A stretch of 64,000 nt of DNA from an uncultured Ignavibacteria bacterium (GCA_963724215.1 CAVRTZ010000008.1:130378-194377); one strand, 5' to 3'. Positions 34,475 to 57,489 are shown, counted from the first letter of the stretch. Numbers and translations are program-made. The notes: generated by a model from the letters alone, not told the origin.

Positions 34475-36046
34475 ATGAGAAGAAGATCGTTCATACGGAA
34501 TTCCGTTCCCGTTGCAGTCCTCCCGTTCCTGCTCGGCGGCTTCAACGTCCGGGCGTACGGGCGTTCGAAAATCCTCGAGGGGCTGATCAACGCCGGGACC
34601 CCCGGCGACCGCGTCCTCGTGCTCATCCAGCTCAACGGCGGCAACGACGGGCTCAACACGGTGATCCCTCTCGACCAGTACCCCGCCCTCATGAGCGCCC
34701 GACGAAACATCGTCATCCCGGAGAACAAGGTCCTGAAGCTCACCGACGCCACCGGGCTCCACCCCTCGATGACCGGACTGCATGAGCTCTTCACCGACGG
34801 ACGGGTGAACATCGTCCAGGGGGTGAGCTATCCGAACCCGAACAAGTCCCATTTCCGCGGCACGGACATCTGGCTCACGGCCTCGGACGCCGACGAGACC
34901 CTGAACACCGGGTGGCTCGGGAGGTGGCTGGACCAGACGTACCCCGATTTCCCGATCGGGTACCCGAATGAAATCATGCCCGACCCGCTGGCGATCCAGA
35001 TCGGGTCGGTGGTCTCGACGGGGATCCAGGGGCCGAACGGCTCGCTCGGCATGGCCATCACCAGCCCGACGTCGTTCTACCAGCTGCTCACCGGCGGGGT
35101 GGACACGGCCCCCGACACGCCCGCCGGCCACGAGCTGACGTTCATCCGGCAGGTCGTGCAGCAGACGTCGGTGTACGCCGACAGGATCAGGGCGGCCGCG
35201 GACGCTGTGCCGGCGCAATCGCCCCTGTATCCGCCGGCCGGTTCGAACAGGCTCGCCGACCAGTTGAAGATCGTCGCGAAACTCATCGCGGGCGGACTGA
35301 AGACCCGCATCTACGTCACCAGCCTCGGGGGGTTCGACACCCACGCCGGGCAGGTCGACGGTACGCTGGGGGCGGAGTTCGGGGACCACGCCGACCTCCT
35401 CGGCAAACTCTCGGAGGCGATCTTCGCGTTCCAGGAGGACCTCCGCATGCTGAGGGCGGACAACCGCGTCATCGGAATGACGTTCTCGGAGTTCGGGCGC
35501 AGGATCAAGTCGAACGCCAGCTTCGGGACGGACCACGGTGAAGCGGCCCCCGTCATCCTCTTCGGCAGGGCCGTCAGTAACGGCATCATCGGCGTCAACC
35601 CGGTGATCCCCGATGCGGCTTCGAACTCGGACAACCTGGAGATGCAATACGACTTCCGGCAGGTGTACGCCTCGGTGCTCCGGCAGTGGTTCGGCGTGCC
35701 GCAGGACGTGCTCGAGGCGGTGTTGCTGCGTGATTTCCAGGCGCTCCCGATCGTCGACCCGAACGCCGCGGCGGGCGGTCTCCCGGAGACCATCAGCCTG
35801 GGCCAGAACTATCCCAACCCGTTCAACCCGTCGACGGTCATTTCGTTCCTGTCCGACGGCGGGCCGGTCACCATCAAGGTGTTCGACACGCTCGGGCGTG
35901 AGGTGGCGACCGTGCTGGACGGCATCCCGGGAACGGGCCGGTTCAGCGTCAACTTCGACGCCTCGGCGCTTCCTTCGGGCGTCTACTTTTACAGAATGCA
36001 GACCGGCTCCCACCAGCTGGTCCGGAAAATGAACCTGATCAAATAG
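34475..36046 (+). CDS. DUF1501 (sulfatase-fold) protein with T9SS C-terminal sorting domain, copy 2
   Basis: 523-aa ORF with the same blocks as copy 1. It is 12 aa shorter in the linker before the CTD (PIVDPNAAAGGLPETI vs VVVGLPEPRLPIVNQEGAAADGLPETV). Confidence 0.85.
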   Translation: MRRRSFIRNSVPVAVLPFLLGGFNVRAYGRSKILEGLINAGTPGDRVLVLIQLNGGNDGLNTVIPLDQYPALMSARRNIVIPENKVLKLTDATGLHPSMTGLHELFTDGRVNIVQGVSYPNPNKSHFRGTDIWLTASDADETLNTGWLGRWLDQTYPDFPIGYPNEIMPDPLAIQIGSVVSTGIQGPNGSLGMAITSPTSFYQLLTGGVDTAPDTPAGHELTFIRQVVQQTSVYADRIRAAADAVPAQSPLYPPAGSNRLADQLKIVAKLIAGGLKTRIYVTSLGGFDTHAGQVDGTLGAEFGDHADLLGKLSEAIFAFQEDLRMLRADNRVIGMTFSEFGRRIKSNASFGTDHGEAAPVILFGRAVSNGIIGVNPVIPDAASNSDNLEMQYDFRQVYASVLRQWFGVPQDVLEAVLLRDFQALPIVDPNAAAGGLPETISLGQNYPNPFNPSTVISFLSDGGPVTIKVFDTLGREVATVLDGIPGTGRFSVNFDASALPSGVYFYRMQTGSHQLVRKMNLIK

Positions 36047-36798: not shown

Positions 36799-37401
36799 AT
36801 GAAAATATTCTCAATTCTTTCCGGGCTCATCCTCCTCGCCGCGGGACCTCTCGCCGGCCAGGACGCCTGGCAGATCGACCGGTCGCACAGCTCCATCGAG
36901 TTCGCCGTCACCCACATGGTGATCGCCGAAGCGACCGGCCGTTTCAAGGACTTCGACGTCAAGATGACATCGACCGGCGAGGATTTCGCGGCAGCCGGGA
37001 TCGAGGCCGTCATCAAGACCGCCAGCATCGCCACCGACAACGAATACCGGGACAACGACCTGCACGGCGCCGAATTCTTCGACGTGGAGAAATACCCCGA
37101 GGCCACCTTCAAGAGCACGAAGTTCGAGAAGACGGGCGACGGCAGGTATAAAATCACGGGGAACCTCACGATCCGCGATACGACGAAGCCGGTCGTGCTC
37201 GACGCGACCTACTTCGGCAGCATCACCGATGCGAAGGGCGGCGTGCGCATGGGCTGGAAGGCCGAAACCACCATCGACCGTTTCGATTTCGGCGTCAAAT
37301 GGAACAAGGCGCTCGAAGCGGGCGGGCTTGTGGTTTCGAAGGACGTCAGGCTCACCATCCGGGTGGAGATGAAAAAAGTCCAGCCGGGAAAAAAGGAATA
37401 A
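36799..37401 (+). CDS. YceI-family periplasmic polyisoprenoid-binding protein
   Basis: 200-aa ORF with a signal peptide. It carries IDRSHSSIEFAVTHMVIAEATGRF, RDNDLHGAEFFDVEKYPEATF and ITGNLTIRDTTKPV, the canonical YceI blocks. Confidence 0.9.
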   Translation: MKIFSILSGLILLAAGPLAGQDAWQIDRSHSSIEFAVTHMVIAEATGRFKDFDVKMTSTGEDFAAAGIEAVIKTASIATDNEYRDNDLHGAEFFDVEKYPEATFKSTKFEKTGDGRYKITGNLTIRDTTKPVVLDATYFGSITDAKGGVRMGWKAETTIDRFDFGVKWNKALEAGGLVVSKDVRLTIRVEMKKVQPGKKE

Positions 37402-37430
37402 CCCCGCAGTCCCAATCATCCGGGAAAGCC

Positions 37431-38360
37431 ATGGCCGGCGAAACGATGAACAGGATCTTCATGCTACCGGACGAGAAGGAGATGGAGGCGTCCGGGAAGA
37501 CCACCATCCTGGAGGTCTCCCTCGATTCCGGCATCCCCCACGTCCACGTCTGCGGCGGGAAGGCGCGATGCTCCACCTGCCGTGTGGTGGTGGTCTCCGG
37601 GCTCGACCGTTGTTCTCCGCGCCAGGGCGCCGAAGAAAAACTCGCCGGCAGGCTCAACTTCGGGCCCCACGTGCGCCTCGCCTGCCAGACCACGGTCAGC
37701 GGCGACGTGACCGTCCGCCGGACGGTCCTGGACACGCTCGACATCCAGCTCTCCAACCAGACGGGTCCGGGCCTCAAGCTCGGGTCGGTCGGGGAGGAGA
37801 AACACCTCGCGATCCTCTTCGCGGACATCGGGGACTACACGTCGTTCGCGGAGTCGCTCCCCGCCTATGACGTGATCCACGCCCTCCGGCGGTACTTCAT
37901 CACGATGGGAAGGGTGATCGACGCGCACGGCGGCCGCATCAACGACTACGTCGGCGACGGGATCATGGCCCTCTTCGGCATCGACGACGCCCCCGATCCG
38001 GTCTACCGCGCGATCCGCGCCGGCCTCGAGATGCTCTGGGAGGTCGATTCCCTCAATCCCTACCTGCAGGCGATGTACCGGCGGACGTTCCGCGTCCGCA
38101 TCGGCATTCACTACGGTCCGGTGGTGATCGGCACGATCGGCATGGCCGACATGGAGAAGATGGCCGTGATCGGAGACGCGGTGAACGTCGCGGAAAGGAT
38201 CGAGGACGCCAACAAACAGACGGGCACGTCGATGCTCGTCTCCGACGCTGCGCTGCGCGAGGTCTTCGGCCGGGTCCGCACGCGGGAATCGTTCAGGGAC
38301 GTCTCCCTCAGGGGGAAACGCGCCCGCTTCACACTTCACGAGGTCTCCGAGGTCCTCTAG
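37431..38360 (+). CDS. [2Fe-2S] ferredoxin domain fused to a class III adenylate/guanylate cyclase
   Basis: ORF 37299..38360 trimmed to MAGETMNRIF. The N-terminal domain has CGGKARCSTC...LAC (C-x5-C-x2-C...C). The cyclase domain has LAILFADIGDYTSF, YVGDGIMALFG, IGIHYGPVVIG and VIGDAVNVAERIE. Confidence 0.85.
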   Translation: MAGETMNRIFMLPDEKEMEASGKTTILEVSLDSGIPHVHVCGGKARCSTCRVVVVSGLDRCSPRQGAEEKLAGRLNFGPHVRLACQTTVSGDVTVRRTVLDTLDIQLSNQTGPGLKLGSVGEEKHLAILFADIGDYTSFAESLPAYDVIHALRRYFITMGRVIDAHGGRINDYVGDGIMALFGIDDAPDPVYRAIRAGLEMLWEVDSLNPYLQAMYRRTFRVRIGIHYGPVVIGTIGMADMEKMAVIGDAVNVAERIEDANKQTGTSMLVSDAALREVFGRVRTRESFRDVSLRGKRARFTLHEVSEVL

Positions 38361-38364
38361 GGCG

Positions 38365-39075
38365 ATGAAGAACCTCTTCGAAATACCGCATTGCGAGACC
38401 TGCCTGCCGCGCCTCCATTCAGTGTTCAGCGTGCTTTCGCAGGAGGGACTCGCGAAGCTCCAGCTCCACAAGGGATGCAATTTCCACCGGAGCGGCCAGG
38501 TGCTCTTCTACGAGGGCGACTATCCTTCCGGCCTCTACTGCATCAACCAGGGCAAGGTCAAGCTGACGAAGGTCGGTGAGGCCGGCCGCGAACAGATCGT
38601 CCGGCTGGCCCGCGAGGGGGACGTCGTCGGCTATCGCGCGCTCGTGAGCGGGACGCCGTACGAACTCTCGGCCACGGTCCTCGAGGACGCGTCGATCTGC
38701 TTCATCCCCCGCCAGACGTTCCACGTCCTGATGGCGGAAAACCCCGCGCTCACCGCGCGGATCATGCGGCAGCTTACGCAGGACCTCGCGCGCGCAGAAC
38801 AGAAACAGGTGTCGCTCGCGCAGAAACAGGTGAGGGAGCGCCTCGCCGAAACGCTCCTGATGCTGAAGGAATTCTACGGCACCGAGGACGACCACCACAC
38901 CCTCCGGAGCAAGCTCTCCAGGGAAGACATCGCCAACTACATCGGCACGGCGACGGAGACGGTCATCCGGCTCCTGTCGGAATTCGCGAAGGAGGGGATC
39001 ATCGCGCTGGAGGGGAAGAAGATCAAGATCGTGGACCTCCGCACCCTGCGCGACGCGGCGCGCCTGCCGGACTAG
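38365..39075 (+). CDS. Crp/Fnr family transcriptional regulator
   Basis: 236-aa ORF starting 4 nt after the cyclase stop. It has a cNMP-binding beta-roll (GQVLFYEGDYPSGLYCINQGKVKL) and a C-terminal HTH (SREDIANYIGTATETVIRLLSEF). An N-terminal HCETC is present. Confidence 0.85.
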   Translation: MKNLFEIPHCETCLPRLHSVFSVLSQEGLAKLQLHKGCNFHRSGQVLFYEGDYPSGLYCINQGKVKLTKVGEAGREQIVRLAREGDVVGYRALVSGTPYELSATVLEDASICFIPRQTFHVLMAENPALTARIMRQLTQDLARAEQKQVSLAQKQVRERLAETLLMLKEFYGTEDDHHTLRSKLSREDIANYIGTATETVIRLLSEFAKEGIIALEGKKIKIVDLRTLRDAARLPD

Positions 39076-39263
39076 CGACACCCCGCCATCCCCCCCCCTC
39101 CTGGGGGACATCCCCCCCCAAACTCTCCTGCTCGGGATCCCCGACCACGTGGTCGAACGGACAATCCGTCATTCCTCCATCGCACAACACGATATCCGTC
39201 ATCATTCAGACATCTGCAGGTGGCCGGCGAAAATCATTCATTTTCGCCGATTCGGGATGCCGA

Positions 39264-39279
39264 CATGATATAAATCATG
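39264..39279 (+). promoter_or_regulatory. candidate Crp/Fnr-family operator upstream of the cytochrome cluster
   Basis: Perfect palindrome CATGAT-ATAA-ATCATG. Its core TGAT-N4-ATCA matches the FNR-type consensus TTGAT-N4-ATCAA at 8 of 10 positions. Its centre is 66 nt upstream of the ATG at 39338. Confidence 0.4.
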
Positions 39280-39337
39280 TTTTAACCTTTCCAAGATCAT
39301 ACCCCCCGGCCCGTCGATTGCTTATTTTTTATACAGG

Positions 39338-40156
39338 ATGTTGAAGAAAACGACAAATATTAACAAGATCCTGGTACCGGTCGATCTCACGGACGCCTCA
39401 TTGTGCGCCGTTGAGGCCGCCCTGACCCTTTCAAGGGAAAAAAAATCCCAGATCTACCTTCTCCACGTCATCACCCGGGCCGACGACCGGCCGGGCGCCG
39501 GAGGGGAGACTGACCCGGAGCTGCAGAAAAAATACCGCGCGATGGAAGAGTTCTTCCTGAAGAAAGTCAGGCAGCAATCCAGGTTCGCCTGCATCGTCCG
39601 CACGGGGACGCCCGCTGTGGAGATCCTGACGTTCGCGAGGGAGGAAGGCGTCGACGTCATCGTGCTCCCCGTCGGGGCCGATCTGACCGGGGACGCCGTC
39701 CGGCCCGGGGGCATCGCCGACCAGATCGTCCGCAACGCCTCGGTCCCCGTCATGGTCGTCAAGCCGGGACAGGCCGCGCGGAAACTCACCGGTACCGTGC
39801 ATTGGGAAAAGGAAGAGAGGAACTCCATGCAACACGACGAACGCTATCTCCAGGAAATACGGCAAAGGGTGTGCGCGAAGTGCATCGACCGCACGCCGAC
39901 GGGTCTCTGCGTGACCTCCACCTACGATTCCTGCGCCATCAATAAATACCTGCCGGAAATCATTGACATCGTCCTCACGACCGGGGGCGACGACCTCGAC
40001 GCCTACGTCGCACGGTTGAGGGAAAAGGTCTGCGCCGTCTGCCAGCACCAGTCGCCCGACGGGCGCTGCGACGTGCGGGACGACGTCGAATGCGCCCTCG
40101 ACCGGTATTTCCCCATCGTCGTCGAGGCGATCCAGGAAGTGAAACACTCGCGATGA
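39338..40156 (+). CDS. universal stress protein (UspA) domain fused to a tandem four-Cys module
   Basis: 272-aa ORF. The USP fold spans aa 1-145 (ILVPVDLTDAS ... VIVLPVG ... VRNASVPVMVV). Two repeats of VCAxC-x8-C-x7-CA follow (aa 165-270). Confidence 0.75.
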   Translation: MLKKTTNINKILVPVDLTDASLCAVEAALTLSREKKSQIYLLHVITRADDRPGAGGETDPELQKKYRAMEEFFLKKVRQQSRFACIVRTGTPAVEILTFAREEGVDVIVLPVGADLTGDAVRPGGIADQIVRNASVPVMVVKPGQAARKLTGTVHWEKEERNSMQHDERYLQEIRQRVCAKCIDRTPTGLCVTSTYDSCAINKYLPEIIDIVLTTGGDDLDAYVARLREKVCAVCQHQSPDGRCDVRDDVECALDRYFPIVVEAIQEVKHSR

Positions 40157-40163
40157 ACCGCTC

Positions 40164-42521
40164 ATGAAACCGAACGATCAATCAGCCGGAAACGCCGCAC
40201 GCAACCCCCTCGCGCGGCTGATGCTCATGGTCGCGTTCGCGGCCGTGGCGTTTCTCCTGGCCGCGTTCTGGATCCTGGCAGGCCCGGCGAAGGCCCAGTC
40301 GAAGGACGACTGCCTGGCGTGCCACTCCGACGCTTCGCTCTCGACAGAGAGAAACGGGGCGCCGGTGTCGCTCCACGTCGACGCCGCCGTCCTCGACCGG
40401 TCGCCGCACCGGAAACTCGTCTGCGTCGCCTGCCACGCCGGCTTCGACCCCAACGAGCTCCCGCACAGGAAAACCATACGGCCGGTGGAATGCCTCACCT
40501 GCCACAAGGGCTCGGAATTGAAGCACGCGTTCCATCCCCAGATGGCGAAGTCGATCGCCGCCGGGGAAGAGCCTTCGGTCTCGTGCAAGGACTGTCACGG
40601 GACGCACAACGTCGTCTCGCCCAAAGAGAAGGAATCGCCGTTTAACCGCGCGAACATGTCCGAGGGGTGCGGCCGGTGCCACGGCGACGTCGTCGGGCAG
40701 TACGCTGCTTCGGCGCATGGCGGCGCGTTTTCGGCCGGCGTGAAAGGCGCGCCGGAGTGCCTCGGCTGCCACGGCCACGACGTCACGGCGTCGAGCCATC
40801 CGGACGACACCGTCGGCATGAAGCTCGCGCAGGAACGCCTCTGCCTCAGCTGTCACCTCGACAACCCCGACGTGAGGGAAAAAACCTCGCCTTCGGCGGG
40901 CTTCATCGCCGCCTACGAGCAGAGCGTCCACGGGCGGGCCCTGATGAACGGGAACGCCAGGGCGCCCAACTGCGTCGATTGCCACGGCAGCCACCAGATG
41001 GCGAAGGGTTACGACCCGGCGGCGAAGGTCAGCAAGATGAACATCGCCGAAACCTGTTCCAAGTGCCACGAAGACATTGCGAACGTCTACAACGAGAGCG
41101 CGCACGGCAAGGCGGTCGCCAAGGGCGTGGCCGACGCCCCCACCTGCACGAACTGCCACGGGGAACACACGATCCTCAGGCACAACGACCCGAAATCGCC
41201 GGTCGCGAAGCAGAACCTCTCGGCGCAGGTCTGCTCGCCGTGCCACAGCTCGGTCGCCCTCTCGACCAAGTACGGCATCGAGAGCGACCGGTTCAAGACC
41301 TTCTCCGACAGCTACCACGGCCTCGCCATCCGCGGCGGTTCGATCGAGGTCGCCAATTGCGCCAGCTGCCACGGGACGCACAACATCAAGTCGTCGAGCG
41401 ACTCCACCTCGATGATCAGCCGGGCGAACCTCGCGAAGACCTGCGGCAGCTGCCACCCCGGGGCGAACCAGCGGTTCACCGTCGGCAAGGTCCACGTGGA
41501 CGAATCCTCCCGCGCGGAGGAACCGATGCTCTACTGGATCACGACCGCCTACATCCTCCTGATCGTGGTCACCATCGGCGGGATGCTGGTCCACAACGCC
41601 CTCGACTTCGTGAAGAAATCTCGCCGGAAACTGATGATCCGCCGCGGACTCATCCCCCATCCGCACACGAGCCACGAGCTCTACCCGAGGATGAGCAGGA
41701 ACGAACGGTTCCAGCACGCGGCCCTCCTGTTGAGCTTCATGACGCTGGTCATCACAGGGTTCATGCTCCGGTTCCCCGAGGTCTGGTGGGTGCAGTGGAT
41801 CAGGTCGATCAGCGGATCGGTGTTCGACACCCGCAGCGTCATCCACCGCGTCGCCGGCGTGGTGATGCTTACCGCGAGCTTTTACCACGTCTGGTACATC
41901 CTCTTCACGGTCCCGGGGCGGCGGCTGGTGTTCGACATGTTCCCGCGGATCCAGGACGCGAGGGACGCCGTCGCGATGGTGAGGTACAACCTCGGTCTTT
42001 CCGCGGAGCGCCCGCTCTTCGACCGGTTCTGCTACATCGAGAAGGCCGAATACTGGGCCCTCATCTGGGGGACGTTCGTCATGGGCGCCACGGGCCTCGT
42101 CATGTGGTTCGACAACACGTTCATCGGTCTCTTCACGAAGCTGGGGTACGACGTCGCCCGCACGATCCATTACTACGAGGCGTGGCTGGCGACGCTCGCC
42201 ATCATCGTCTGGCACTTCTATTTCGTGATCTTCAACCCGGACGTTTATCCGCTGAACGTGGCGTTCTGGAAGGGCACGCTCACCGAAGAGGAGATGGAGG
42301 AGGACCATCCGCTCGAGCTGCAGCGGATCGTGGCCGGCAGGACGAGTGAGGACCTTCCCGCCGAAGAGATGCGGGGAGAGAAACTCGAAGACGGCGATGG
42401 CGCCGGCAGGGCGGCGAAAAAACAGACGACCGATGTGAAACCTCCGGCCGACGGGAAACCTCCGGTCCAGGGAAAACCGCCCGCCGGGAATCCCGACAAC
42501 CGCGGAGGCGGAAAGAAATGA
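40164..42521 (+). CDS. CbcL-like fusion: membrane-anchored 13-haem cytochrome c + FdnI/HydC-type dihaem cytochrome b domain
   Basis: 785-aa ORF. It has an N-terminal TM anchor, 13 CXXCH motifs (CLACH, CVACH, CLTCH, CKDCH, CGRCH, CLGCH, CLSCH, CVDCH, CSKCH, CTNCH, CSPCH, CASCH, CGSCH) and a linker TM helix. A 4-TM domain follows with His pairs IHRVAGVVMLTASFYH and IHYYEAWLATLAIIVWH and loop YIEKAEYW. The tail is Lys/Pro/Gly-rich. Confidence 0.85.
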   Translation: MKPNDQSAGNAARNPLARLMLMVAFAAVAFLLAAFWILAGPAKAQSKDDCLACHSDASLSTERNGAPVSLHVDAAVLDRSPHRKLVCVACHAGFDPNELPHRKTIRPVECLTCHKGSELKHAFHPQMAKSIAAGEEPSVSCKDCHGTHNVVSPKEKESPFNRANMSEGCGRCHGDVVGQYAASAHGGAFSAGVKGAPECLGCHGHDVTASSHPDDTVGMKLAQERLCLSCHLDNPDVREKTSPSAGFIAAYEQSVHGRALMNGNARAPNCVDCHGSHQMAKGYDPAAKVSKMNIAETCSKCHEDIANVYNESAHGKAVAKGVADAPTCTNCHGEHTILRHNDPKSPVAKQNLSAQVCSPCHSSVALSTKYGIESDRFKTFSDSYHGLAIRGGSIEVANCASCHGTHNIKSSSDSTSMISRANLAKTCGSCHPGANQRFTVGKVHVDESSRAEEPMLYWITTAYILLIVVTIGGMLVHNALDFVKKSRRKLMIRRGLIPHPHTSHELYPRMSRNERFQHAALLLSFMTLVITGFMLRFPEVWWVQWIRSISGSVFDTRSVIHRVAGVVMLTASFYHVWYILFTVPGRRLVFDMFPRIQDARDAVAMVRYNLGLSAERPLFDRFCYIEKAEYWALIWGTFVMGATGLVMWFDNTFIGLFTKLGYDVARTIHYYEAWLATLAIIVWHFYFVIFNPDVYPLNVAFWKGTLTEEEMEEDHPLELQRIVAGRTSEDLPAEEMRGEKLEDGDGAGRAAKKQTTDVKPPADGKPPVQGKPPAGNPDNRGGGKK

Positions 42522-44536
42522 AACGGACGATCGTCGTCGCCGCGGCGTTCCTGTTCCTCTTCGCGTTGAGTGCGACCGCGCAGGAGGACGCCGACTGCCT
42601 CTCGTGCCACGAGGACAGATCGCTGGAGGGGACCCGCGGCGGGAGGACGATGTCGGTGTACGTCAACGTGAAAACGCACGCCGGCTCGATCCACGGCGCG
42701 AACGGGTGCGTCTCGTGCCACGCCGACCTGGCGGGGAAGGAACTCCCCCACGGGGAGGACGTCGCCCCCGTCGACTGCGGCAGCTGCCACAGCGCGGAGC
42801 AGGAGGAGGAATCGAAATCGCTCCACGGCCAGGCCGCCGCGCGGGGCGACAAGCTCGCGCCCCTCTGCAAGGACTGCCACGGGACCCACAACGTGCTTCC
42901 GAAATCGAACCGGAACTCCCCGATTTCGCCCCTGAAAATCCCGTTCCTCTGCGGGAAGTGCCACCAGGAGGGTTCGCCGGTCCAGCGCCAGCGGGTGATC
43001 CACCAGGACAACATCATCGAGAATTTCTCGGAGAGCATCCACGGCGAGGGGCTCCTCAGGAAAGGGCTCATCGTGGCTCCCAACTGCGCCTCCTGCCACA
43101 CCGGGCACTCGATCCTCCCCCACACGAATCCCGCGTCGTCGATCGCGAGGAAGAACATCGCCTCGACCTGCACGAAATGCCACGCCGAGATCGAGGCGGT
43201 GCACCGCAAGGTGATCAAGGGGGAGCTCTGGGAGAAGGAGAACCACGTCCTCCCGGCGTGCGTGGACTGCCACCAGCCGCACAAGATCCGGAAGGTCTTC
43301 TACGCGCAGGGCATGGCCGACCGCGACTGTCTCAGTTGCCACGAAAAACCGGAACTGAAGTCCTCCCGCGACGCTCATTCGCTGACCGTGAAGGTTTCGG
43401 AGCTCACGGATTCGAGGCACGTGAAAATATCGTGCAGCCAGTGCCACGCGCAGGTGAACGCATCGAAGGTGAGGCCCTGCGAGACCATCACGGAAAAGGT
43501 CGACTGCGCGTCGTGCCACGCCGAGGTTGGCCAGCAGTTCAACGTCAGCCTCCACGGCAGGCTCGTCGCGAACAAGGACCCGAACGGGCCGACCTGCAAG
43601 GAATGCCACGGCCGGCACGGCGTGAAGGGGAAACAGGACCCGGCGTCGGGCACGTTCCCCACGAACGTCCCCGACCTCTGCGCGCGGTGCCACCGCGAGG
43701 GGAAGAAGGCGGCGCTGCTCTACACGGGGGCCGAGCACCAGATCATCGAGCGGTACACCGAGAGCATCCACGGCAAGGGGCTGATGAAGAGCGGCCTCAC
43801 CGTGACCGCGATGTGCAGCAACTGCCACACGCCCCACAGCGTGCTGCCGCGCAGCGACACGCTCTCGAGCGTCAACCCGCGGAACCTCCCGAAGACGTGC
43901 GGAAAATGCCACCACGGCATCGAGGAACAGTTCCAGAAGAGCGTCCATTCGAAGCTCGTCTCGAAATCCGACAAGGAGCTCCCGGTGTGCGACGACTGCC
44001 ACACCGCGCACAAGATCAAACGCGCGGACTCGCAGGGGTTCAAGCTCGAAATCATGCAGCAGTGCGGCCGCTGCCACGAGAAGATCGCGGAGACCTACTT
44101 CGACACCTACCACGGCAAAGTGTCCCAGCTCGGCTATACGAAGACGGCGAAGTGCTACGACTGCCACGGCGCCCACGACATCCTCCCGGTGGCCGACCCG
44201 AAATCGCACCTGAGCCACGACAACGTGGTCGGGACCTGCCAGAAGTGCCACGAGGGCGCTACGCGCCGGTTCGCGGGATACCTGACCCACGCCACGCACC
44301 ACGACCCGGAGAAATACCCCTTCCTCTTCTGGACGTTCTGGGGGATGACGTCGCTCCTGGTCGGGACGTTCCTCTTCGGAGGCGTGCACACGCTCCTCTG
44401 GCTCCCGCGGGCGTTCCAATACCGGAAATTGCTCAAGGCGAAGCACCTGGAGAAGATGAGCGGCGGGCCGCCCACGGCCCCTGAAATGGATGAACCCGGC
44501 AACGCGGGCGGCGGGAAGGAAGGGCGGGATGGATAA
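42518..44536 (+). CDS. 19-haem c-type cytochrome with C-terminal TM helix
   Basis: 672-aa ORF whose start overlaps the previous stop by 4 nt. It has a signal peptide, 19 CXXCH motifs counted, recurrent S(I/V/L)HG spacers, and a C-terminal helix YPFLFWTFWGMTSLLVGTFLFGGVH. Confidence 0.85.
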   Translation: MKRTIVVAAAFLFLFALSATAQEDADCLSCHEDRSLEGTRGGRTMSVYVNVKTHAGSIHGANGCVSCHADLAGKELPHGEDVAPVDCGSCHSAEQEEESKSLHGQAAARGDKLAPLCKDCHGTHNVLPKSNRNSPISPLKIPFLCGKCHQEGSPVQRQRVIHQDNIIENFSESIHGEGLLRKGLIVAPNCASCHTGHSILPHTNPASSIARKNIASTCTKCHAEIEAVHRKVIKGELWEKENHVLPACVDCHQPHKIRKVFYAQGMADRDCLSCHEKPELKSSRDAHSLTVKVSELTDSRHVKISCSQCHAQVNASKVRPCETITEKVDCASCHAEVGQQFNVSLHGRLVANKDPNGPTCKECHGRHGVKGKQDPASGTFPTNVPDLCARCHREGKKAALLYTGAEHQIIERYTESIHGKGLMKSGLTVTAMCSNCHTPHSVLPRSDTLSSVNPRNLPKTCGKCHHGIEEQFQKSVHSKLVSKSDKELPVCDDCHTAHKIKRADSQGFKLEIMQQCGRCHEKIAETYFDTYHGKVSQLGYTKTAKCYDCHGAHDILPVADPKSHLSHDNVVGTCQKCHEGATRRFAGYLTHATHHDPEKYPFLFWTFWGMTSLLVGTFLFGGVHTLLWLPRAFQYRKLLKAKHLEKMSGGPPTAPEMDEPGNAGGGKEGRDG

Positions 44537-45518
44537 GCACGACGAGGGCATGAAAAAACCGGGCGGGGAATCCACGCCCCTGAAATCGAAGCCGGAACGA
44601 CCGGCGCCCGCGCAATCCGCGCCGTCGCACGGCGCCCCGGCGCCCGCGGCGCCCGCGACATCCTCCCATCCCGTCGAGAGCGCCCCCCCCGCCGAGCGGC
44701 AGTTCCTCCGCTTCACGCGGCTCAACAGGGCCCTGCACATCTTCCTCATCATGAGCTTCCTGACACTCGCGCTCACCGGGCTGACGCTGAAGTTTTCCTA
44801 CACCGGCTGGGCGGTGGTGCTCTCGCACCTGCTCGGCGGGTTCGAGAGCGCCGGCTACCTCCACCGCTTCGCGGCGGTGATCATGTTCGCCGTCTTCACC
44901 ATCCACGTCACCGACGTCCTCAGGATGAAGAAGCGGGAGGGCCGCACCTGGAGGACGATGATCTTCAGCGCCGATTCGATGATGTTCAACGGGAAGGACC
45001 TCTCGGACTTCATCGGGTCGGTGAAGTGGTTCGTGGGGAAGGGCCCGCGCCCGCAGTTCGGCCGGTGGACCTACTGGGAGAAGTTCGACTACTTCGCCGT
45101 CTTCTGGGGCGTGGCGGTCATCGGCTCCACGGGGCTGATGCTCTGGTTCCCGGAGTTCTTCACGAATTTCATGCCGGGCTCGCTGCTCAACGTCGCCACG
45201 ATCATCCACAGCGACGAGGCCCTGCTCGCCGTCGGGTTCATCTTCACGGTGCATTTCTTCAACACCCACCTCCGCCCGGAGAAATTCCCGATGGACATCG
45301 TCATCTTCACGGGAAGGATGGACGTCGACGAGTTCGCCCTCGACAAGCCCGCGGAGTACGAGGAGCTCGTGAAATCGGGCCGGCTCGAGTCCCGCCTGGT
45401 CGAGCCGTACCAGCCGATCGTCATCCGGGCGGTCAAGGCGTTCGGGTGGACAGCGCTGATCATCGGGTTCAGCGTGGTGATCTGGATCATCTACGCGATG
45501 CTGTTTGCCTACCGGTAA
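44529..45518 (+). CDS. FdnI/HydC-type dihaem cytochrome b membrane subunit
   Basis: ORF 44490..45518 trimmed to the ATG at 44529, an 8-nt overlap with the upstream stop. It has a Pro/Ala-rich N-tail and four TM helices. The His pattern is LNRALH, LHRFAAVIMFAVFTIH, IHSDEALLAVGFIFTVH, with loop YWEKFDYF. It is a paralogue of the C-terminal domain of 40164..42521. Confidence 0.8.
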   Translation: MDKHDEGMKKPGGESTPLKSKPERPAPAQSAPSHGAPAPAAPATSSHPVESAPPAERQFLRFTRLNRALHIFLIMSFLTLALTGLTLKFSYTGWAVVLSHLLGGFESAGYLHRFAAVIMFAVFTIHVTDVLRMKKREGRTWRTMIFSADSMMFNGKDLSDFIGSVKWFVGKGPRPQFGRWTYWEKFDYFAVFWGVAVIGSTGLMLWFPEFFTNFMPGSLLNVATIIHSDEALLAVGFIFTVHFFNTHLRPEKFPMDIVIFTGRMDVDEFALDKPAEYEELVKSGRLESRLVEPYQPIVIRAVKAFGWTALIIGFSVVIWIIYAMLFAYR

Positions 45519-45614: not shown

Positions 45615-47114
45615 ATGAAACGCATCTTTCCCGCATCGTTCTATAACCTCACCACGCTCATCGGGGCGGCCGTCTCCGGCGTCAGCTTCGGCCTGATCCT
45701 GTTCCTGATGCTCGTCGAGTTCATGTCCGCCAACGAGCACCCGTACATGGGCATCATCACGTTCGTGATCCTCCCGGTTTTCCTCATGATGGGGATCGGG
45801 ATGATGGTGTTCGGCGTGATGCGCGAGCACCGGCGCGAGCGGCTCGGCAAGCCCCACGGCCTGCACCTGCCGCAGATCGACCTGAACAACCCGAGGCACC
45901 GCACCGCGTTCGTGAGCGTTTCGGTGGGGGGCATCGCGCTCCTCCTGTTCTCGGCGTTCGGCAGCTTCAAGGCGTACGAGTACACCGAGTCCGACCAGTT
46001 CTGCGGGGAGACGTGCCACACCGTGATGGAGCCGGAGTACACCGCGTACCAGTTCTCCCCCCATGCGAGGGTCGGCTGCGTACAGTGCCACATCGGGTCC
46101 GGGGCGGACTGGTTCGTCAAGTCGAAGATCTCCGGCAGCTACCAGCTCTACGCCGTCGCCTTCAACAAGTACCCGAAGCCGATCCCCACGCCGATCGAGA
46201 ACCTCCGGCCCGCGCAGGAGACGTGCGAACAGTGCCACTGGCCGAAACATTTCTTCAGCGAAAAACAGCGGACGAATACCTACTACCTCGCCGACGAAAA
46301 GAACACGCGCTGGGACATCAATCTGCTGATGAAGATCGGCGGCGGCAACGTCGAGGCGGGTCCCACATCCGGGATCCACTGGCACATGAACATCGCGCAC
46401 GAGGTCACGTACAAGGCCCTCGACCGCGAGCGGCAGGTGATCCCGTGGGTCAGGTCCAGGACGCCCGACGGCACGGAGACGATCTACCGGAGCACCGAGG
46501 TCGACGTCCCCGAGGATTCGCTCGCGGCGGCGTTCACGCGCCGGATGGACTGCATCGACTGCCACAACCGGCCGACGCACATCTACCATCCCCCCGCGCG
46601 CTCGGTGAACCACGTGATGTCGCTCGGCTGGATCAGCCCGTCGCTGCCGTCGGTGAAATCGGTGAGCGTCGAGGCCCTCGAGGCCGGATACGAAACGCGG
46701 CAGGGCGCGCTCGACACCATCCGGCTCACGATGGAGGGCTATTACCGGGACAACCACCCGGAGGTCTTCGAGACGAAAAAGCCCACGCTCGACAGCGCGA
46801 TCGCCGAAGTGCAGAAGATCTACAACAGGAACTACTTCCCCGAGATGAAGACAGACTGGAAGAAGTTCCCCGACAACCTCGGGCACCTCTACTATAACGG
46901 ATGTTTCCGCTGCCACGACGGCAAGCACGTCAACGAGGCGGGAAAGGTGCTCTCGAAGGACTGCAACACCTGCCACACGATCCTCTCGCAGAAATTCGAA
47001 GACGACACGCTCCGGATCTCCCTCGAAGGCGTCGATTACAGGCATCCCGTCGACATCGGCGACGCGTGGAAGGAAATGAACTGCAGCGACTGTCACGCGC
47101 CCGACGCACCATAG
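45615..47114 (+). CDS. inner-membrane heptahaem cytochrome, NapC/NirT-related, ImcH-like
   Basis: 499-aa ORF with three N-terminal TM helices. It has 7 haem sites: CGETCH (CX3CH, followed by TVM as in the NapC/NirT first site), CVQCH, CEQCH, CIDCH, CFRCH, CNTCH, CSDCH. Confidence 0.75.
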   Translation: MKRIFPASFYNLTTLIGAAVSGVSFGLILFLMLVEFMSANEHPYMGIITFVILPVFLMMGIGMMVFGVMREHRRERLGKPHGLHLPQIDLNNPRHRTAFVSVSVGGIALLLFSAFGSFKAYEYTESDQFCGETCHTVMEPEYTAYQFSPHARVGCVQCHIGSGADWFVKSKISGSYQLYAVAFNKYPKPIPTPIENLRPAQETCEQCHWPKHFFSEKQRTNTYYLADEKNTRWDINLLMKIGGGNVEAGPTSGIHWHMNIAHEVTYKALDRERQVIPWVRSRTPDGTETIYRSTEVDVPEDSLAAAFTRRMDCIDCHNRPTHIYHPPARSVNHVMSLGWISPSLPSVKSVSVEALEAGYETRQGALDTIRLTMEGYYRDNHPEVFETKKPTLDSAIAEVQKIYNRNYFPEMKTDWKKFPDNLGHLYYNGCFRCHDGKHVNEAGKVLSKDCNTCHTILSQKFEDDTLRISLEGVDYRHPVDIGDAWKEMNCSDCHAPDAP

Positions 47115-47141: not shown

Positions 47142-47600
47142 ATGAACCCCACCAGCAACCAGCCCGCTCCCGACGCCGGGAAACGAGACTTCCTGAAATA
47201 CGCACTGGGGGGAGGATTGCTCGCCTTTTTCGCGTCGATCTTCTATCCCGTCCTCGCCTACCTGAAACCCCCGGTCCAGGCGGAGGTGGAGGTGAAATCG
47301 GTGAACGCGGGGAAGAAGGACGACATCCCCCGCGACTCGGGGAAGATCATCAAGTTCGGCACCAGGCCGGTGATCCTCGTCCGGACGGCCGACGACGAGC
47401 TCAAGGCGTTCGACGCCACCTGCACCCACCTCGACTGCACGGTGCAGTTCAACAAGGACATCGGGATGATCTGGTGCGCCTGCCACAACGGCAAGTACGA
47501 CCTCACCGGGCGAAACGTCGCGGGTCCGCCCCCAAGGCCGCTCACGCCGTACAAGGTCATCATCCAGGGCGATGAAATCCTGATCGCGAAAAACGCATGA
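47142..47600 (+). CDS. Rieske [2Fe-2S] subunit of a cytochrome bc/b6f-type complex
   Basis: 152-aa ORF. It has a Tat-like KRDFLK plus TM anchor and cluster boxes CTHLDC and CACHNG. Confidence 0.9.
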
Positions 47601-48691
47601 AGAACGCACTGAACAAAGCCTACGACTGGGTCAACGAGCGGGTACACCTCGAAGACCTGGTGAACTTCATGGGGAAGAAGTATGTTCCCGTGCACCGTCA
47701 TTCCGTCTGGTACTACTTCGGGGGCGTGACGCTCTTCCTCTTCATCATCCAGGTCGTCACGGGGATCATGCTGCTCCTCTATTATAAGGGGAGCGAGGAC
47801 CTGGCATTCGAAAGCATCCAGTTCATCATGTCGAAGGTGGAGTTCGGCTGGCTGATCCGGTCGATCCACAGCTGGGCGGCGAACCTCTTCATCCTCTCGG
47901 CGATGATCCACATGTTCAGCGTGTTCTTCGAAAGGACCTACCGCAAACCGCGCGAGATCACCTGGCTCACCGGGATGTTGATGCTCTTCCTCGGGATGGG
48001 GTTCGGGTTCAGCGGGTACCTGCTCCCCTGGAACGAACTGGCGTTCTTCGCCACGAAGGTCGGGACCGACATCGCCGGCGTCGTGCCGTTCATCGGCGAA
48101 CCGATACTGGAATTCCTCAGGAGCGGCCCCGACGTCACCGGCGCGACCCTCTCCAGGTTCTTCGGGTTCCACGTCGCGGTCTTCCCCGGCCTCTTCACCG
48201 TCCTCCTCGGGATCCACCTCGTGCTGGTCCAGCGGCAGGGGATGAGCGAGCCGATGGGCCACGGCACGACGGACGAGGGCGGGGCGCCGCCCATGGCGAT
48301 GAAGAAAATGCCCTTCTTCCCGAACTTCCTCTACCGGGACCTCCTGTTGTGGCTCATCGTCCTGAACCTGCTCGCCGTCCTCGCGGTGCTCTTCCCGTGG
48401 GAGCTGGGCGTGAAGGCCGACCCGTTCGCGTCAGCCCCCGCAGGCATCAAGCCGGAGTGGTACTTCATGTTCATGTTCCAGACGCTCAAGTACCTGCCTG
48501 CGAACGTCCTGGTCTTCGAGGGCGAGATGCTCGGCATCATGTTCTTCGGCCTCGCCGGGCTCCTCTGGACGCTGGTCCCCTTCTGGGACAGGAGCAGCGC
48601 GAGGGGGAAGAAGAGCCGGCTCGTCACCTACGGCGGCCTCATCGCCGTCATGTTCATCATCGTCATGACCATTATCGGCTGGCTCTCATGA
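47597..48691 (+). CDS. cytochrome b6 fused to subunit IV (cytochrome b of the Rieske/b complex)
   Basis: 364-aa ORF with an ATGA overlap with the Rieske stop. Helix B is [16 protein letters not shown] (H-x13-H) and helix D is [17 protein letters not shown] (H-x14-H, b6/Bacillus-type). The PEWY motif (KPEWYFMF) lies in the C-terminal half. Confidence 0.9.
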
Positions 48692-50217
48692 AGACACGAA
48701 CCGTCATCTTCGCGGCGGCGCTGCTGCTCACCGCCACCGGCGGGTTCCCGCTCCTCCCCGCGCCCGCGCTTCACGCCCAATCCGCCGACGCCCTGTTCCG
48801 GACCGCGACCGCCAGACCGGACAACTGCTTCACCTGCCACAAGGCCCTCGGCGAGGTGGCGGGGGTGAAGTACACGGCCGACATCCACTATAAAAAGGGT
48901 ATCTCCTGCGCCGGTTGCCACGGGGGCGACCCTACGACCGACGACCAGGAAAAGTCCATGTCCGCCGACCACGGGTTCCTGGGTGTACCGAAGGGCGACG
49001 ACGTCTCGAAGACCTGCCAGCGGTGCCACTCAGACGCGCAGGTGATGAAGGTGAACTTCAAGTCGTCGGTGGGGCTGAACCAGATGGAGGACCTCGCGGC
49101 CAGCGTCCACGGGAAAATGGCCGTCTCGGGGAAGGAAAAGATGGTCCAGTGCGTCACCTGCCACAGCGTCCACGACATCAGGAGCGTAAAGGACCCCCAG
49201 TCCCCGGTCAACCACCTGAACGTCAACAGGACCTGCGCGACCTGCCACTCGAGCGCACTCTTCATGAGGTCGTACAACCAGGCCCTGCCGATCGACCAGG
49301 AGGAGAAATACAAGACGAGCGTCCACGGGATGAAGCTTGCGAAGGGCGACGCGAAGGTGGCCGTCTGCTCGAGCTGCCACGGCAGCCACGACATCCTCAA
49401 GGCCGTCGACGCGAAATCGCACGTCAACGCGATCAACCTGCCCGCCACCTGCGGCACCTGCCACGCGAACGCGGAGTACATGAAGGAGTATTCCATCTCC
49501 ACCGACCAGCTCGCGGAGTTCCGCACGAGCGTCCACGGCAAGGCCCTGCTCGAGAAGCACGACCTCGGCGCCCCCTCGTGCAACGATTGCCACGGCAACC
49601 ACGGCGCGGCGCCGCCGGAGGTGGCGTCGATCTCGAAAGTGTGCGGCACGTGCCACGCGATGAACGCGTCCCTCTTCGCCGAAAGCCCTCACAAGAAGGC
49701 CTACGACGAACTCGGCCTTCCGGAGTGCGAGACGTGCCACGGCAACCACGCGATCATCAACGCCACCGACGCCCTCCTCGGGGTCTCGGACGAGGCGGTC
49801 TGCTCCCGCTGCCATTCGCAAAGCGACAACCCGAAGGGGTTCCAGGCGGCGGCGCTCATGCGCATCATGATCGACTCGCTCGAACTTGCCGAACACAGGG
49901 CCGATTCGCTCGTGTCGAACGCCGAGCAGAAGGGGATGGAAATCTCCGAGGCGAAGTTCAAGCTCCGCGACATCCGGCAGGCAAGACTGCTGTCGCGCAC
50001 GGCGGTGCACTCGTTCAACGAGCCGAAATTCGCGGAGGTCGTGAACCAGGGGATCGCCGTCGCCGGCGTGGTGGCGGTGCAGGGGCAGGCGAGCATCGAC
50101 GAGTACTACTTCCGGCGGTACGGGCTGGGCGTGGCCACGCTGATCATCACGATCGTGGCGATCGCGCTCTACATGACCATTAAACGAATCGAGAAGAAAC
50201 AGGCCGAAAAGGCCTGA
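48688..50217 (+). CDS. 11-haem c-type cytochrome with helical stalk and C-terminal TM anchor (in the cytochrome c1/f position)
   Basis: ORF 48349..50217 trimmed to the ATG at 48688, an ATGA overlap with the cytochrome b stop. It has signal peptide [19 protein letters not shown], 11 CXXCH motifs, a long charged helical region, then [19 protein letters not shown]. Confidence 0.85.
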
Positions 50218-50222
50218 CCGGT

Positions 50223-50244: not shown

Positions 50245-50247
50245 GGG

Positions 50248-52605: not shown

Positions 52606-52606
52606 C

Positions 52607-53712: not shown

Positions 53713-53716
53713 ATCG

Positions 53717-57484: not shown

Positions 57485-57489
57485 CGCGG

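What the first reader, a model, noticed from the sequence alone, without database searches (positions are those of the whole stretch)
40164..45518. Fused and split versions of the same multihaem-c + dihaem-b module sit side by side
Gene 40164..42521 consists of an anchor, 13 CXXCH motifs, a linker TM helix and a 4-TM b domain.

Gene 42518..44536 has 19 CXXCH motifs and ends exactly with the equivalent linker helix (YPFLFWTFWGMTSLLVGTFLFGGVH vs MLYWITTAYILLIVVTIGGMLVH). Gene 44529..45518 is the stand-alone b domain.

Both b domains share the same features:
- one His in helix 1 (RFQHAAL / LNRALHIF);
- H-x13-H in helix 2 (IHRVAGVVMLTASFYH / LHRFAAVIMFAVFTIH);
- H-x14-H in the last helix (IHYYEAWLATLAIIVWH / IHSDEALLAVGFIFTVH);
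- the Y-x-EK-xx-Y-(W/F) loop.

This looks like a gene fission/fusion pair preserved in tandem. The two parallel gates, with wires of 13 and 19 haems, could be tuned to different potentials, as reported for CbcL versus ImcH. The fused protein also carries a low-complexity tail (GKPPVQGKPPAGNPDNRGGGKK).
Basis: seen in the sequence. Interest (0 to 1): 0.7.

Follow-up and report, generated by a model that had tools for sequence, protein, structure and literature searches.

The report
Split and fused CbcL-type cytochromes in tandem
Two related membrane "electron gates" (a many-haem wire joined to a haem-b membrane anchor) sit side by side, one as a single protein and one cut into two genes; the cut is real and recurs in many bacterial phyla, but the protein family (CbcL-type quinol oxidoreductases) is already known.

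Summary
Gene 40164-42521 is a 13-CXXCH cytochrome c fused through one membrane helix to an FdnI-type cytochrome b. Genes 42518-44536 (19 CXXCH, C-terminal helix) and 44529-45518 (stand-alone b) form the same module as two polypeptides.

The b domains are 31% identical (E 9e-27). The c domains are 29% identical (E 3e-52).

The split is not an assembly error. An independently assembled relative has the same ATGGATAA stop/start overlap, and thousands of stand-alone ~300-aa b homologues exist. Among 77 species loci, the 19-haem module is one ORF in 35 and two in 42.

The split b subunit belongs to the Geobacter CbcL clade (53-56% identity to CbcL fragments). The fused gene is an older paralogue (31%). 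The pair lies in tandem in most loci, across several phyla.

The helix left on the c subunit carries an invariant His. This recalls CbcA/CbcB.

Next door are an ImcH homologue, a Rieske/cytochrome b/11-haem complex and menaquinone biosynthesis genes.

Most likely these are parallel menaquinol:periplasmic-cytochrome oxidoreductases. Direction and potential tuning are untested. I rate it a new variant of a known kind, of moderate interest.

The parts
40164..42521 (+). g1: fused bc cytochrome, 785 aa. N-terminal hydrophobic segment, 13 CXXCH, linker TM helix, 4-TM FdnI-type b domain, low-complexity cytoplasmic tail.
40311..41456 (+). g1 periplasmic multihaem c domain (first to last CXXCH, residues 50-431)
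41526..41594 (+). g1 linker TM helix (residues 455-477) ending in His477. This His is invariant in 47 family members.
41691..42239 (+). g1 cytochrome b domain (PF01292, residues 510-692). Invariant His518, His561, His575, His669, His684.
42261..42521 (+). g1 C-terminal cytoplasmic low-complexity tail. It contains no sixth TM helix. Homologues cover only 84-97% of the query, so the tail is poorly conserved.
42518..44536 (+). g2: 19-CXXCH cytochrome c subunit, 672 aa, with a signal peptide and a C-terminal TM helix. Its start overlaps the g1 stop by 4 nt (ATGA).
42593..43324 (+). g2 8-haem repeat unit A (residues 26-269)
   Evidence: 40% identical to unit B, E 2e-56
43325..44062 (+). g2 8-haem repeat unit B (residues 270-515), an internal tandem duplicate of unit A
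44315..44389 (+). g2 C-terminal TM helix (residues 600-624) ending in His624. This His is invariant in 41 split and 30 fused homologues. It is the equivalent of the g1 linker helix and of TM1 of CbcL.
44390..44536 (+). g2 cytoplasmic low-complexity tail (48 aa) plus stop codon
44529..44536 (+). Fission junction ATGGATAA: the g3 ATG overlaps the g2 TAA in a different reading frame. The same junction is present in relative L081.
44529..45518 (+). g3: stand-alone CbcL-clade cytochrome b subunit, 329 aa. An alternative ATG lies at 44490. Disordered head of 56 aa, 4-TM FdnI-type core, cytoplasmic segment, sixth TM helix.
44697..45278 (+). g3 b core (residues 57-250) with invariant His70, His112, His126, His227, His242
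45453..45509 (+). g3 C-terminal TM helix (residues 309-327). It corresponds to the sixth TM of CbcL and is absent from g1.
45615..47114 (+). g4: ImcH homologue. 3 TM helices, an atypical CX3CH plus 6 CXXCH, and a NapC/NirT-like core.
47142..47600 (+). g5: Rieske 2Fe-2S subunit
47597..48691 (+). g6: cytochrome b (b6/ExtP-like)
48688..50217 (+). g7: 11-CXXCH cytochrome c. Its start overlaps the g6 stop (ATGA).
37299..40156 (+). Upstream regulatory set conserved with L081: a Fer2-domain class III nucleotidyl cyclase, a Crp/Fnr cNMP-binding regulator, and a Usp with a Cys-rich C-terminal extension.

Best explanation
The region encodes two paralogous CbcL-type 'bc' quinol:cytochrome oxidoreductase modules in one co-directional, tightly packed gene string.

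Module layout (shown for g1 by sequence and topology rules):
- A Sec-exported multihaem c wire lies in the periplasm.
- It is followed by one TM helix running from periplasm to cytoplasm, which ends in an invariant His.
- A cytoplasmic linker follows.
- Last comes an FdnI-type four-helix cytochrome b bundle, with His at the four FdnI haem-ligand positions plus one more invariant His in TM2.

Module 1 (g1, 13 haems) keeps all of this in one chain.

Module 2 (19 haems, made by internal duplication of an 8-haem unit) has been cut inside the cytoplasmic linker.
- g2 keeps the wire and the His-bearing helix.
- g3 is the b bundle plus a sixth TM helix.
- The overlapping stop/start (ATGGATAA) suggests translational coupling.

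Inferred:
- The g2 helix docks onto g3 in the membrane and rebuilds the CbcL six-helix arrangement, in the way proposed for CbcA/CbcB.
- Each module oxidises menaquinol at the b domain and passes electrons through the b haems and the c wire to periplasmic acceptors.
- Together with the adjacent ImcH homologue and the Rieske/cytochrome b/11-haem complex, they give several parallel exits from the quinone pool.

Evolution: the paralogue pair is old and widely kept in tandem. Fused/split transitions at this one linker are recurrent, and fused is the favoured ancestral state.
For: Anatomy.

Homology of the two modules.

FdnI relationship:
- PF01292 is above its cut-off.
- 1kqf_C is the only PDB sequence hit, and His aligns at FdnI H18, H57, H155 and H169.
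- 1kqf_C is the only significant Foldseek hit: E 2.3e-4, TM 0.71 normalised by target length.

CbcL relationship:
- g3 is 53% identical over 182 aa (E 2e-66) to a fragment retrieved with OCR-derived CbcL sequence.
- g3 is 56% identical over 57 aa to the OCR fragment of GSU0274.
- CbcL has an N-terminal nine-haem domain followed by six TM helices, with His in TM1, TM2, TM3 and two in TM5. This matches g2 helix + g3.

The split is real:
- Same junction in L081.
- Thousands of stand-alone homologues at 66-85% identity.
- 42 split versus 35 fused among 77 species loci.
- 20 stand-alone versus 67 fused among the best 150 50%-identity cluster representatives.
- The fused linker is 39-49 aa; split tails are longer and low-complexity.

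Other points:
- The linker-helix His is conserved in 100% of 118 sequences.
- The tandem is conserved: 41 of 54 loci with enough flank hold the smaller paralogue, and in 34 it is directly adjacent.
- g2 carries an internal duplication.
- Context: ImcH homologue, Rieske/cytochrome b, menaquinone genes.
- Precedent for a His-bearing helix on a separate c subunit: CbcA/CbcB.
Against: - No experiment exists. The direction of electron flow, the quinone used, the partners and the haem b number are all inferred.
- Six invariant membrane His exceed the four a dihaem b needs.
- The AlphaFold model of g3 is poor (mean pLDDT 61). No complex could be modelled, so docking of the g2 helix onto g3 is not shown.
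- A full-length authentic GSU0274 sequence could not be obtained. The CbcL link rests on OCR fragments and on truncated homologues found with them.
- Fused as the ancestral state is only favoured. Root state: fused 63, split 25, ambiguous 12 of 100 bootstraps; fused 23, split 1, ambiguous 16 of 40 in the wider set.
- No outer-membrane conduit is present in the window.
- CbcL relatives (MtoC) also occur in Fe(II) oxidisers.
Confidence: 0.75

Rival explanations
1. The split is an artefact (an assembly or sequencing indel) or a recent pseudogenising frameshift, and the true gene is one fused 19-haem bc cytochrome.
For: Fused single-ORF versions exist in 35 of 77 related loci. Some nanopore-derived MAGs show obviously broken genes: L004, L022, L063.
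Against: - An independently assembled relative has the identical stop/start junction, and all gaps are multiples of three.
- About 28 of the split loci come from MAGs that are not MFD nanopore assemblies.
- Thousands of stand-alone b proteins at 66-85% identity exist in four source databases.
- The split tails are much longer than the 39-49-aa fused linker, which implies long independent evolution.
Confidence: 0.03
2. The two ORFs are joined during translation by programmed frameshifting or readthrough, so the cell still makes a fused protein.
For: The ORFs overlap by 8 nt in different frames. The most common frame offset among split loci is +1.
Against: - Split loci use all three frame relations, including in-frame stops, and the distance from the g2 stop to the start of g3 homology varies from about -117 to +129 nt.
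- The junction lies in non-conserved low-complexity sequence with no shared slippery site.
- g3 homologues have their own start codons and variable heads.
Confidence: 0.03
3. The architecture is as described but the modules work in reverse. They would take electrons from periplasmic or extracellular donors (for example Fe(II), as proposed for MtoC) and reduce quinone at the b domain. As in FdnI, this would give a proton-motive redox loop.
For: - The b domain is FdnI-like, and FdnI is a quinone reductase.
- CbcL/MtrH/MtoC homologues occur in both Fe(III) reducers and Fe(II) oxidisers, with no sequence signature of direction.
Against: - g3 is closest to the CbcL type, which acts as a menaquinol oxidase in Geobacter.
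- The neighbour is an ImcH homologue, a family so far reported only in reducers.
- None of this is decisive.
Confidence: 0.15
4. g2 and g3 are neighbours but do not form a complex. g2 would be a helix-anchored periplasmic cytochrome, and g3 would serve another partner, such as a periplasmic dehydrogenase.
For: Stand-alone PF01292 proteins usually anchor enzymes such as formate dehydrogenase or hydrogenase. L081 has a molybdopterin enzyme about 10 kb downstream.
Against: - The same two parts are one polypeptide in 35 of 77 species.
- g2-type and g3-type genes are adjacent in all 42 split loci.
- The His-bearing helix is invariant in both split and fused forms.
- No catalytic subunit gene is present in the window island.
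Confidence: 0.04

Closest known systems
CbcL (GSU0274) of Geobacter sulfurreducens and the CbcL/MtrH/MtoC family
   Same: - N-terminal periplasmic multihaem c domain followed by an FdnI/HydC-like b domain.
- Six TM helices with His in TM1, TM2, TM3 and two in TM5.
- g3 is 53-56% identical to CbcL-type fragments.
- The family is already reported in Ignavibacteriae, Bacteroidetes, Acidobacteria, Gemmatimonadetes and other phyla, with 3-23 haem motifs and lengths of 416-1034 aa.
   Different: - 19 or 13 haems instead of 9.
- The 19-haem member here is cut into two genes between TM1 and TM2.
- g1 lacks the sixth TM helix and is only 31% identical in the b domain.
- The two members sit in tandem and next to an ImcH homologue. 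By locus numbering (GSU0274 versus GSU3259, the latter from my own knowledge) cbcL and imcH are far apart in Geobacter.
- The papers read did not mention split forms or tandem pairs.
CbcBA (GSU0593-0594) of G. sulfurreducens
   Same: Two-subunit bc cytochrome. The multihaem c subunit is anchored by a C-terminal TM helix proposed to supply a His to the four-helix b subunit. The authors mention cbcB-cbcA gene fusions in Chloroflexi.
   Different: - Gene order is b then a.
- It has seven haems.
- Its authors state that CbcB shares no sequence homology with the CbcL b domain. g3 is CbcL-like, so this is a convergent or analogous arrangement, not the same family. No direct comparison with a CbcB sequence was made here.
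FdnI, gamma subunit of E. coli formate dehydrogenase-N (PDB 1KQF chain C)
   Same: Same Pfam family (PF01292). It is the only significant sequence and fold match in the PDB. His aligns at all four haem-ligand positions.
   Different: - NCBIfam FdnI models score far below their cut-offs (48 versus 115.85 bits).
- The partner is a multihaem c wire, not a molybdoenzyme/FeS subunit.
- There are two additional invariant His and an extra partner helix.
ImcH (GSU3259), for the neighbouring gene g4
   Same: 499 versus 507 aa. Three TM helices. Seven haem motifs, including an atypical CX3CH. E125, H135, K171, Q177 and Y186 match ImcH E127, H137, K173, Q179 and Y188 at a constant offset of -2.
   Different: g4 is physically linked to the CbcL-type genes in one gene string. 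It was not compared directly with the GSU3259 sequence.

Membership tests
CbcL/MtrH/MtoC family | N-terminal periplasmic domain with multiple CXXCH motifs | tested here: met
   13 in g1 and 19 in g2. The published family range is 3-23.
CbcL/MtrH/MtoC family | C-terminal HydC/FdnI-like cytochrome b domain | tested here: met
   PF01292 is above its gathering score in g1 and g3. The best fold match is 1kqf_C.
CbcL/MtrH/MtoC family | c and b parts in one polypeptide | tested here: not met
   Met for g1. Not met for g2+g3, which are two ORFs with an 8-nt overlap. Orthologues are single ORFs in 35 of 77 loci.
CbcL/MtrH/MtoC family | Six TM helices after the c domain, with conserved His in TM1, TM2, TM3 and TM5 | tested here: met
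   The g2 helix plus five helices of g3 fit this, with invariant His in each expected helix (pattern). g1 has only five helices, a variant also reported for a few family members.
CbcL/MtrH/MtoC family | Sequence similarity to authentic CbcL | tested here: inconclusive
   g3 is 56% identical over 57 aa to an OCR fragment of GSU0274. It is 53% identical over 182 aa to a truncated homologue (P0242) retrieved with the OCR-derived CbcL fragment. g1's b domain is 31% identical. A full-length GSU0274 sequence could not be obtained.
CbcL/MtrH/MtoC family | Menaquinol oxidase needed for low-potential extracellular acceptors | not testable with these tools
   Needs genetics or electrochemistry.
FdnI/HydC dihaem cytochrome b (PF01292) | Four-helix bundle with His ligands at the positions of FdnI H18, H57, H155 and H169 | tested here: met
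   Alignment to 1kqf_C. These His are 100% conserved in 78 g3-type and 47 g1-type sequences.
FdnI/HydC dihaem cytochrome b (PF01292) | Equivalog-level match to formate dehydrogenase gamma or hydrogenase cytochrome b | tested here: not met
   TIGR01583 scores 48 and 40.9 bits against a cut-off of 115.85. TIGR02125 scores 26.8 against 121.5.
CbcBA | Separate multihaem c subunit whose C-terminal TM helix carries a His, paired with a four-TM b subunit | tested here: met
   The architecture of g2/g3 matches.
CbcBA | Sequence homology of the b subunit to CbcB | not tested
   No CbcB sequence was available. The authors report no homology between CbcB and the CbcL b domain, and g3 is CbcL-like.
ImcH (gene g4) | Three N-terminal TM helices, a NapC/NirT-like core, seven haem motifs including an atypical CX3CH, and the conserved residues E/H/K/Q/Y around haem 1 | tested here: met
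   compared against the descriptions.

The most novel reading that the evidence does not exclude
The His-bearing helix may be a separable adaptor. Fused/split transitions at the same cytoplasmic linker recur in at least three paralogous lineages. This would let multihaem wires of different length be matched to CbcL-type b subunits.

The six invariant membrane His comprise the four FdnI-type ligands plus the adaptor-helix His and a second TM2 His. Both extra His lie at the cytoplasmic leaflet. They could mean that these complexes hold a third haem b, or a switchable ligation, at the subunit interface. Such a switch could be the structural basis of the potential-gating reported for CbcL.
Probability: 0.12. 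Interest if true: 0.65.

Novelty: new variant of a known kind. Interest (0 to 1): 0.42.

Why it matters
CbcL-type cytochromes are among the few known exits from the quinone pool towards extracellular or periplasmic acceptors. Outside Geobacter they have been catalogued only as single fused proteins.

Several consequences follow.
- The split form is common: at least 42 of the 77 informative GTDB species loci examined, out of about 600 matching stretches, and thousands of metagenomic proteins. Searches that require c and b motifs in one protein will therefore miss many CbcL systems in Ignavibacteria and Acidobacteria.
- The fused/split series is a natural experiment. It indicates that the first TM helix with its invariant His belongs functionally to the b-haem/quinone module.
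- The conserved string of a CbcL paralogue, split CbcL, ImcH and Rieske/cytochrome b/11-haem, placed next to menaquinone biosynthesis genes and a cyclase/Crp/Usp set, is a compact candidate for redox-potential-dependent branching of respiration in abundant soil and sediment phyla.

Tried and rejected
1. Authentic GSU0274 sequence. Only OCR fragments were available in the supplement of PMC9129911. Using them as a query returned only five truncated homologues, not the full protein.

2. PDB sequence search with g1 found nothing. With g3 it found only a weak FdnI hit, E 0.016.

3. AlphaFold2 of g3 with a 15-sequence alignment was poor (mean pLDDT 61). The model was used only for the Foldseek hit to FdnI. 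The tool returns no coordinates, so His geometry and haem number could not be assessed. The g2-g3 complex could not be modelled.

4. The promoter/terminator scan gave no more sites than shuffled sequence.

5. An exact-sequence look-up of g3 in the contig index found no record.

6. Polarity of fusion versus fission.
- A first NJ tree gave a fused root with 6 changes.
- Bootstrapping showed this is not robust: fused 63, split 25, ambiguous 12 of 100.
- Adding 72 family representatives favoured fused: fused 23, split 1, ambiguous 16 of 40.
- I therefore report only that fused is the favoured ancestral state.

7. Literature searches for split CbcL forms, or for this cluster in Ignavibacteria, found only the fused-protein census of Zhong and Shi 2018.

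8. Rejected readings: assembly indel, programmed frameshift, unrelated b families (see the rival explanations).


Full report
**Observation**

The three ORFs are present as described.
- g1 (40164-42521, 785 aa) has 13 CXXCH motifs.
- g2 (42518-44536, 672 aa) has 19.
- g3 (44529-45518, 329 aa) has none.

Pfam places a prokaryotic cytochrome b561 domain (PF01292) above its gathering score in g1 residues 510-692 and in g3. It finds only multihaem c families in g2. NCBIfam gives sub-threshold hits to formate dehydrogenase gamma (FdnI), so these proteins are FdnI-like but are not FdnI equivalogs.

**Are the two modules the same thing?**

Yes.
- The b parts are 31% identical over 232 residues (E 9e-27).
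- The c parts are 29% identical (E 3e-52). One alignment runs from the last haems through the linker helix of g1 into the C-terminal helix of g2.

In a joint alignment of 78 g3-type and 47 g1-type b domains, 34 positions are more than 90% conserved in both families. Five of them are His: TM1; TM2 with H-x13-H; TM4 with H-x14-H. The His ending the linker helix is conserved in all 47 g1-type, 41 split g2-type and 30 fused sequences examined.

Four of the His align with the haem ligands of E. coli FdnI. FdnI (1kqf_C) is the only significant Foldseek match of a g3 model that is admittedly of low confidence.

The extra haems of g2 come from an internal tandem duplication. Two 8-haem units are 40% identical (E 2e-56), and three C-terminal haems follow.

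**Is the split real?**

Three lines of evidence say yes.

1. The b subunit has thousands of stand-alone homologues of about 280-330 aa at 66-85% identity, from NCBI, JGI, ENA and Logan assemblies.
2. The closest relative found is L081, an independent ENA assembly.
   - It has the same gene order from MarR to the 11-haem cytochrome.
   - Its junction sequence is the same (GGATGGATAA).
   - The g2 stop and g3 start fall at the same aligned positions, and all window-versus-L081 gaps are multiples of three.
3. In that alignment the 40 bases upstream of 44529 change more conservatively in the g2 frame than in the g3 frame. This favours 44529 over 44490 as the g3 start.

**How widespread, and fused or split?**

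A scan of one genome per GTDB species with a g3-family alignment matched at least 597 stretches. The best 80 come from MAGs labelled Bacteroidota/Ignavibacteria, Acidobacteriota, Gemmatimonadota, Zixibacteria, Eisenbacteria, Krumholzibacteria, Planctomycetota, Binatia, Elusimicrobia and Omnitrophota.

My ORF and BLASTP analysis of these loci gave these results for the 19-haem module:
- It is a single ORF of about 920-1020 aa in 35 species.
- It is two adjacent genes in 42 species.
- Split junctions use all three frame relations, and the distance from the g2 stop to the start of g3 homology varies widely.

This argues against any conserved recoding signal.

Linker lengths also differ. In fused proteins the stretch from the linker-helix His to the TM1 His is 39-49 aa. 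In split genes the two tails together are about 60-120 aa and low-complexity.

An exhaustive search of 50%-identity cluster representatives found 2352 family members (409 at E<=1e-30). Among the best 150:
- 67 are fused-type, with 2-22 haem motifs (modes 9 and 11);
- 20 are stand-alone b proteins.

None of the 150 is closer to g1's b domain than to g3.

**Polarity**

A first neighbour-joining tree suggested a fused ancestor with six changes. Bootstrapping is less decisive.
- Narrow set: root fused in 63, split in 25 and ambiguous in 12 of 100 replicates, with 5-10 changes.
- Wider set with family representatives added: fused in 23, split in 1 and ambiguous in 16 of 40, with 18-23 changes.

Recurrent transitions are therefore robust. 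Fused is the favoured ancestral state but is not proven.

The same cut also occurs in other paralogues.
- In L073 the small 11-haem paralogue is split, again with an 8-nt overlap, while the 19-haem gene is fused.
- L078 has an extra split 11-haem module beside a fused 19-haem gene.

**Tandem**

Of 54 loci with at least 3 kb on both sides, 41 hold a g1-like gene (9-13 haems plus b). In 34 it is directly adjacent. It lies upstream in the Ignavibacteria type and downstream or on the other strand in Acidobacteria. The pair is thus an old, conserved tandem of paralogues. The window shows the state 'small paralogue fused, large paralogue split'.

**What family?**

Published descriptions:
- CbcL of Geobacter sulfurreducens has a nine-haem periplasmic domain (residues 30-279) followed by a six-helix b domain.
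- It has one His in each of TM1-3 and two in TM5.

This is exactly the pattern of the g2 helix plus g3.

Sequence comparisons:
- OCR fragments of GSU0274 in a paper supplement are 56% identical to g3 over 57 aa.
- Truncated homologues retrieved with those fragments are 53% identical to g3 over 182 aa (E 2e-66), including the sixth helix.
- The same homologues are only 31% identical to g1's b domain.

Hence g2+g3 is a split, 19-haem member of the CbcL clade, and g1 is a divergent paralogue.

Zhong and Shi (PMC6295460) already listed CbcL/MtrH/MtoC homologues in 15 phyla, with 3-23 haem motifs and 416-1034 aa. Large fused forms are therefore known. Split forms and the tandem are not mentioned there, nor in the other papers I searched.

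The two-subunit arrangement recalls CbcBA, where a His in the C-terminal helix of CbcA is proposed to complete haem b binding in CbcB. Its authors state that CbcB is not homologous to the CbcL b domain.

**Context**

The gene string is tightly packed: ATGA overlap g1/g2, 8-nt overlap g2/g3, then gaps of 97 and 28 nt, and further ATGA overlaps.

g4 has the ImcH architecture.
- It has three TM helices and a NapC/NirT-like core.
- It has an atypical CX3CH motif plus six CXXCH motifs.
- It matches the five residues highlighted for ImcH around haem 1 at a constant offset.
- An ImcH-like gene is present in 44 of the 80 loci.

g5-g7 encode a Rieske protein, a b6/ExtP-like cytochrome b and an 11-haem cytochrome. 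These four genes or complexes contain the only multihaem ORFs in the whole window.

Downstream lie futalosine-type menaquinone genes. Upstream lie a ferredoxin-domain nucleotidyl cyclase, a Crp-family regulator and a Usp with a Cys-rich extension. These are conserved in L081.

**Mechanism**

Shown here:
- domain order;
- homology of the two modules;
- conservation of the His residues;
- reality and recurrence of the split;
- conservation of the tandem.

Inferred from the positive-inside rule and from FdnI: the c wire is periplasmic, and the linker helix runs from outside to inside, with its His at the cytoplasmic leaflet near the TM1 and second TM4 His.

Inferred by analogy with CbcL and ImcH in Geobacter:
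- menaquinol is oxidised and electrons are handed to periplasmic carriers;
- several parallel modules possibly serve different potential windows.

The reverse direction, as proposed for MtoC, cannot be excluded.

**Verdict**

It is a new architectural variant and a new genomic arrangement of a known family, not a new kind of system.

Noticed in passing
window 45615-47114 (+): ImcH homologue immediately downstream of the CbcL-type pair. It has 3 TM helices and an atypical CX3CH plus 6 CXXCH. E125, H135, K171, Q177 and Y186 match ImcH E127, H137, K173, Q179 and Y188 at a constant offset of -2. An ImcH-like gene accompanies the pair in 44 of 80 related loci.
   Followed up: partly
window 47142-50217 (+): A Rieske protein, a cytochrome b (b6/ExtP-like) and an 11-haem cytochrome c are encoded in the same gene string. 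This order is conserved in about 20 Ignavibacteria-type and some Acidobacteria loci. Together with g1-g4 this makes four quinone-pool modules and about 50 c-haem motifs in 10 kb.
   Followed up: partly
window 50221-59000 (both strands): Futalosine-type menaquinone biosynthesis genes start 4 nt after the last cytochrome gene: two VitK2_biosynth genes, one CofH/MqnC-like, UbiD with a flavoprotein domain, and UbiA.
   Followed up: no
window 37299-39075 (+): A 2Fe-2S ferredoxin domain fused to a class III adenylate/guanylate cyclase lies directly upstream of a cNMP-binding Crp/Fnr regulator. The same pair precedes the island in L081. It may be a redox-sensing cNMP circuit controlling the cytochromes.
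   Followed up: no
window 39338-40156 (+), residues ~143-272: The Usp protein carries an unannotated 130-aa C-terminal extension with two CX2CX8CX7C motifs and no Pfam hit. Usp genes precede the g1-like gene in several Ignavibacteria-type loci.
   Followed up: no
L073:5699-7907 (-) and L078:5543-8042 (+): Mirror-image cases in Gemmatimonadota MAGs: the smaller 11-haem paralogue is split (8-nt overlap in L073) while the 19-haem gene next to it is fused.
   Followed up: partly
L081:12654-15362 (+): The closest relative has an extra three-gene module inserted between the ImcH-like and Rieske genes: a 246-aa multihaem c, a 4Fe-4S protein and an NrfD-type membrane protein. The window lacks it.
   Followed up: no
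g1 His477/His575, g2 His624, g3 His126: Two invariant membrane His exist beyond the four FdnI-type haem ligands, both predicted at the cytoplasmic leaflet. Their role is open: third haem, alternative ligation, or quinone site.
   Followed up: partly
window 34475-36046 (+): A DUF1501 protein with a type IX secretion C-terminal sorting domain. Together with the best hits being labelled Bacteroidota/Ignavibacteria MAGs, this points to a high-GC (~64%) member of that group.
   Followed up: no
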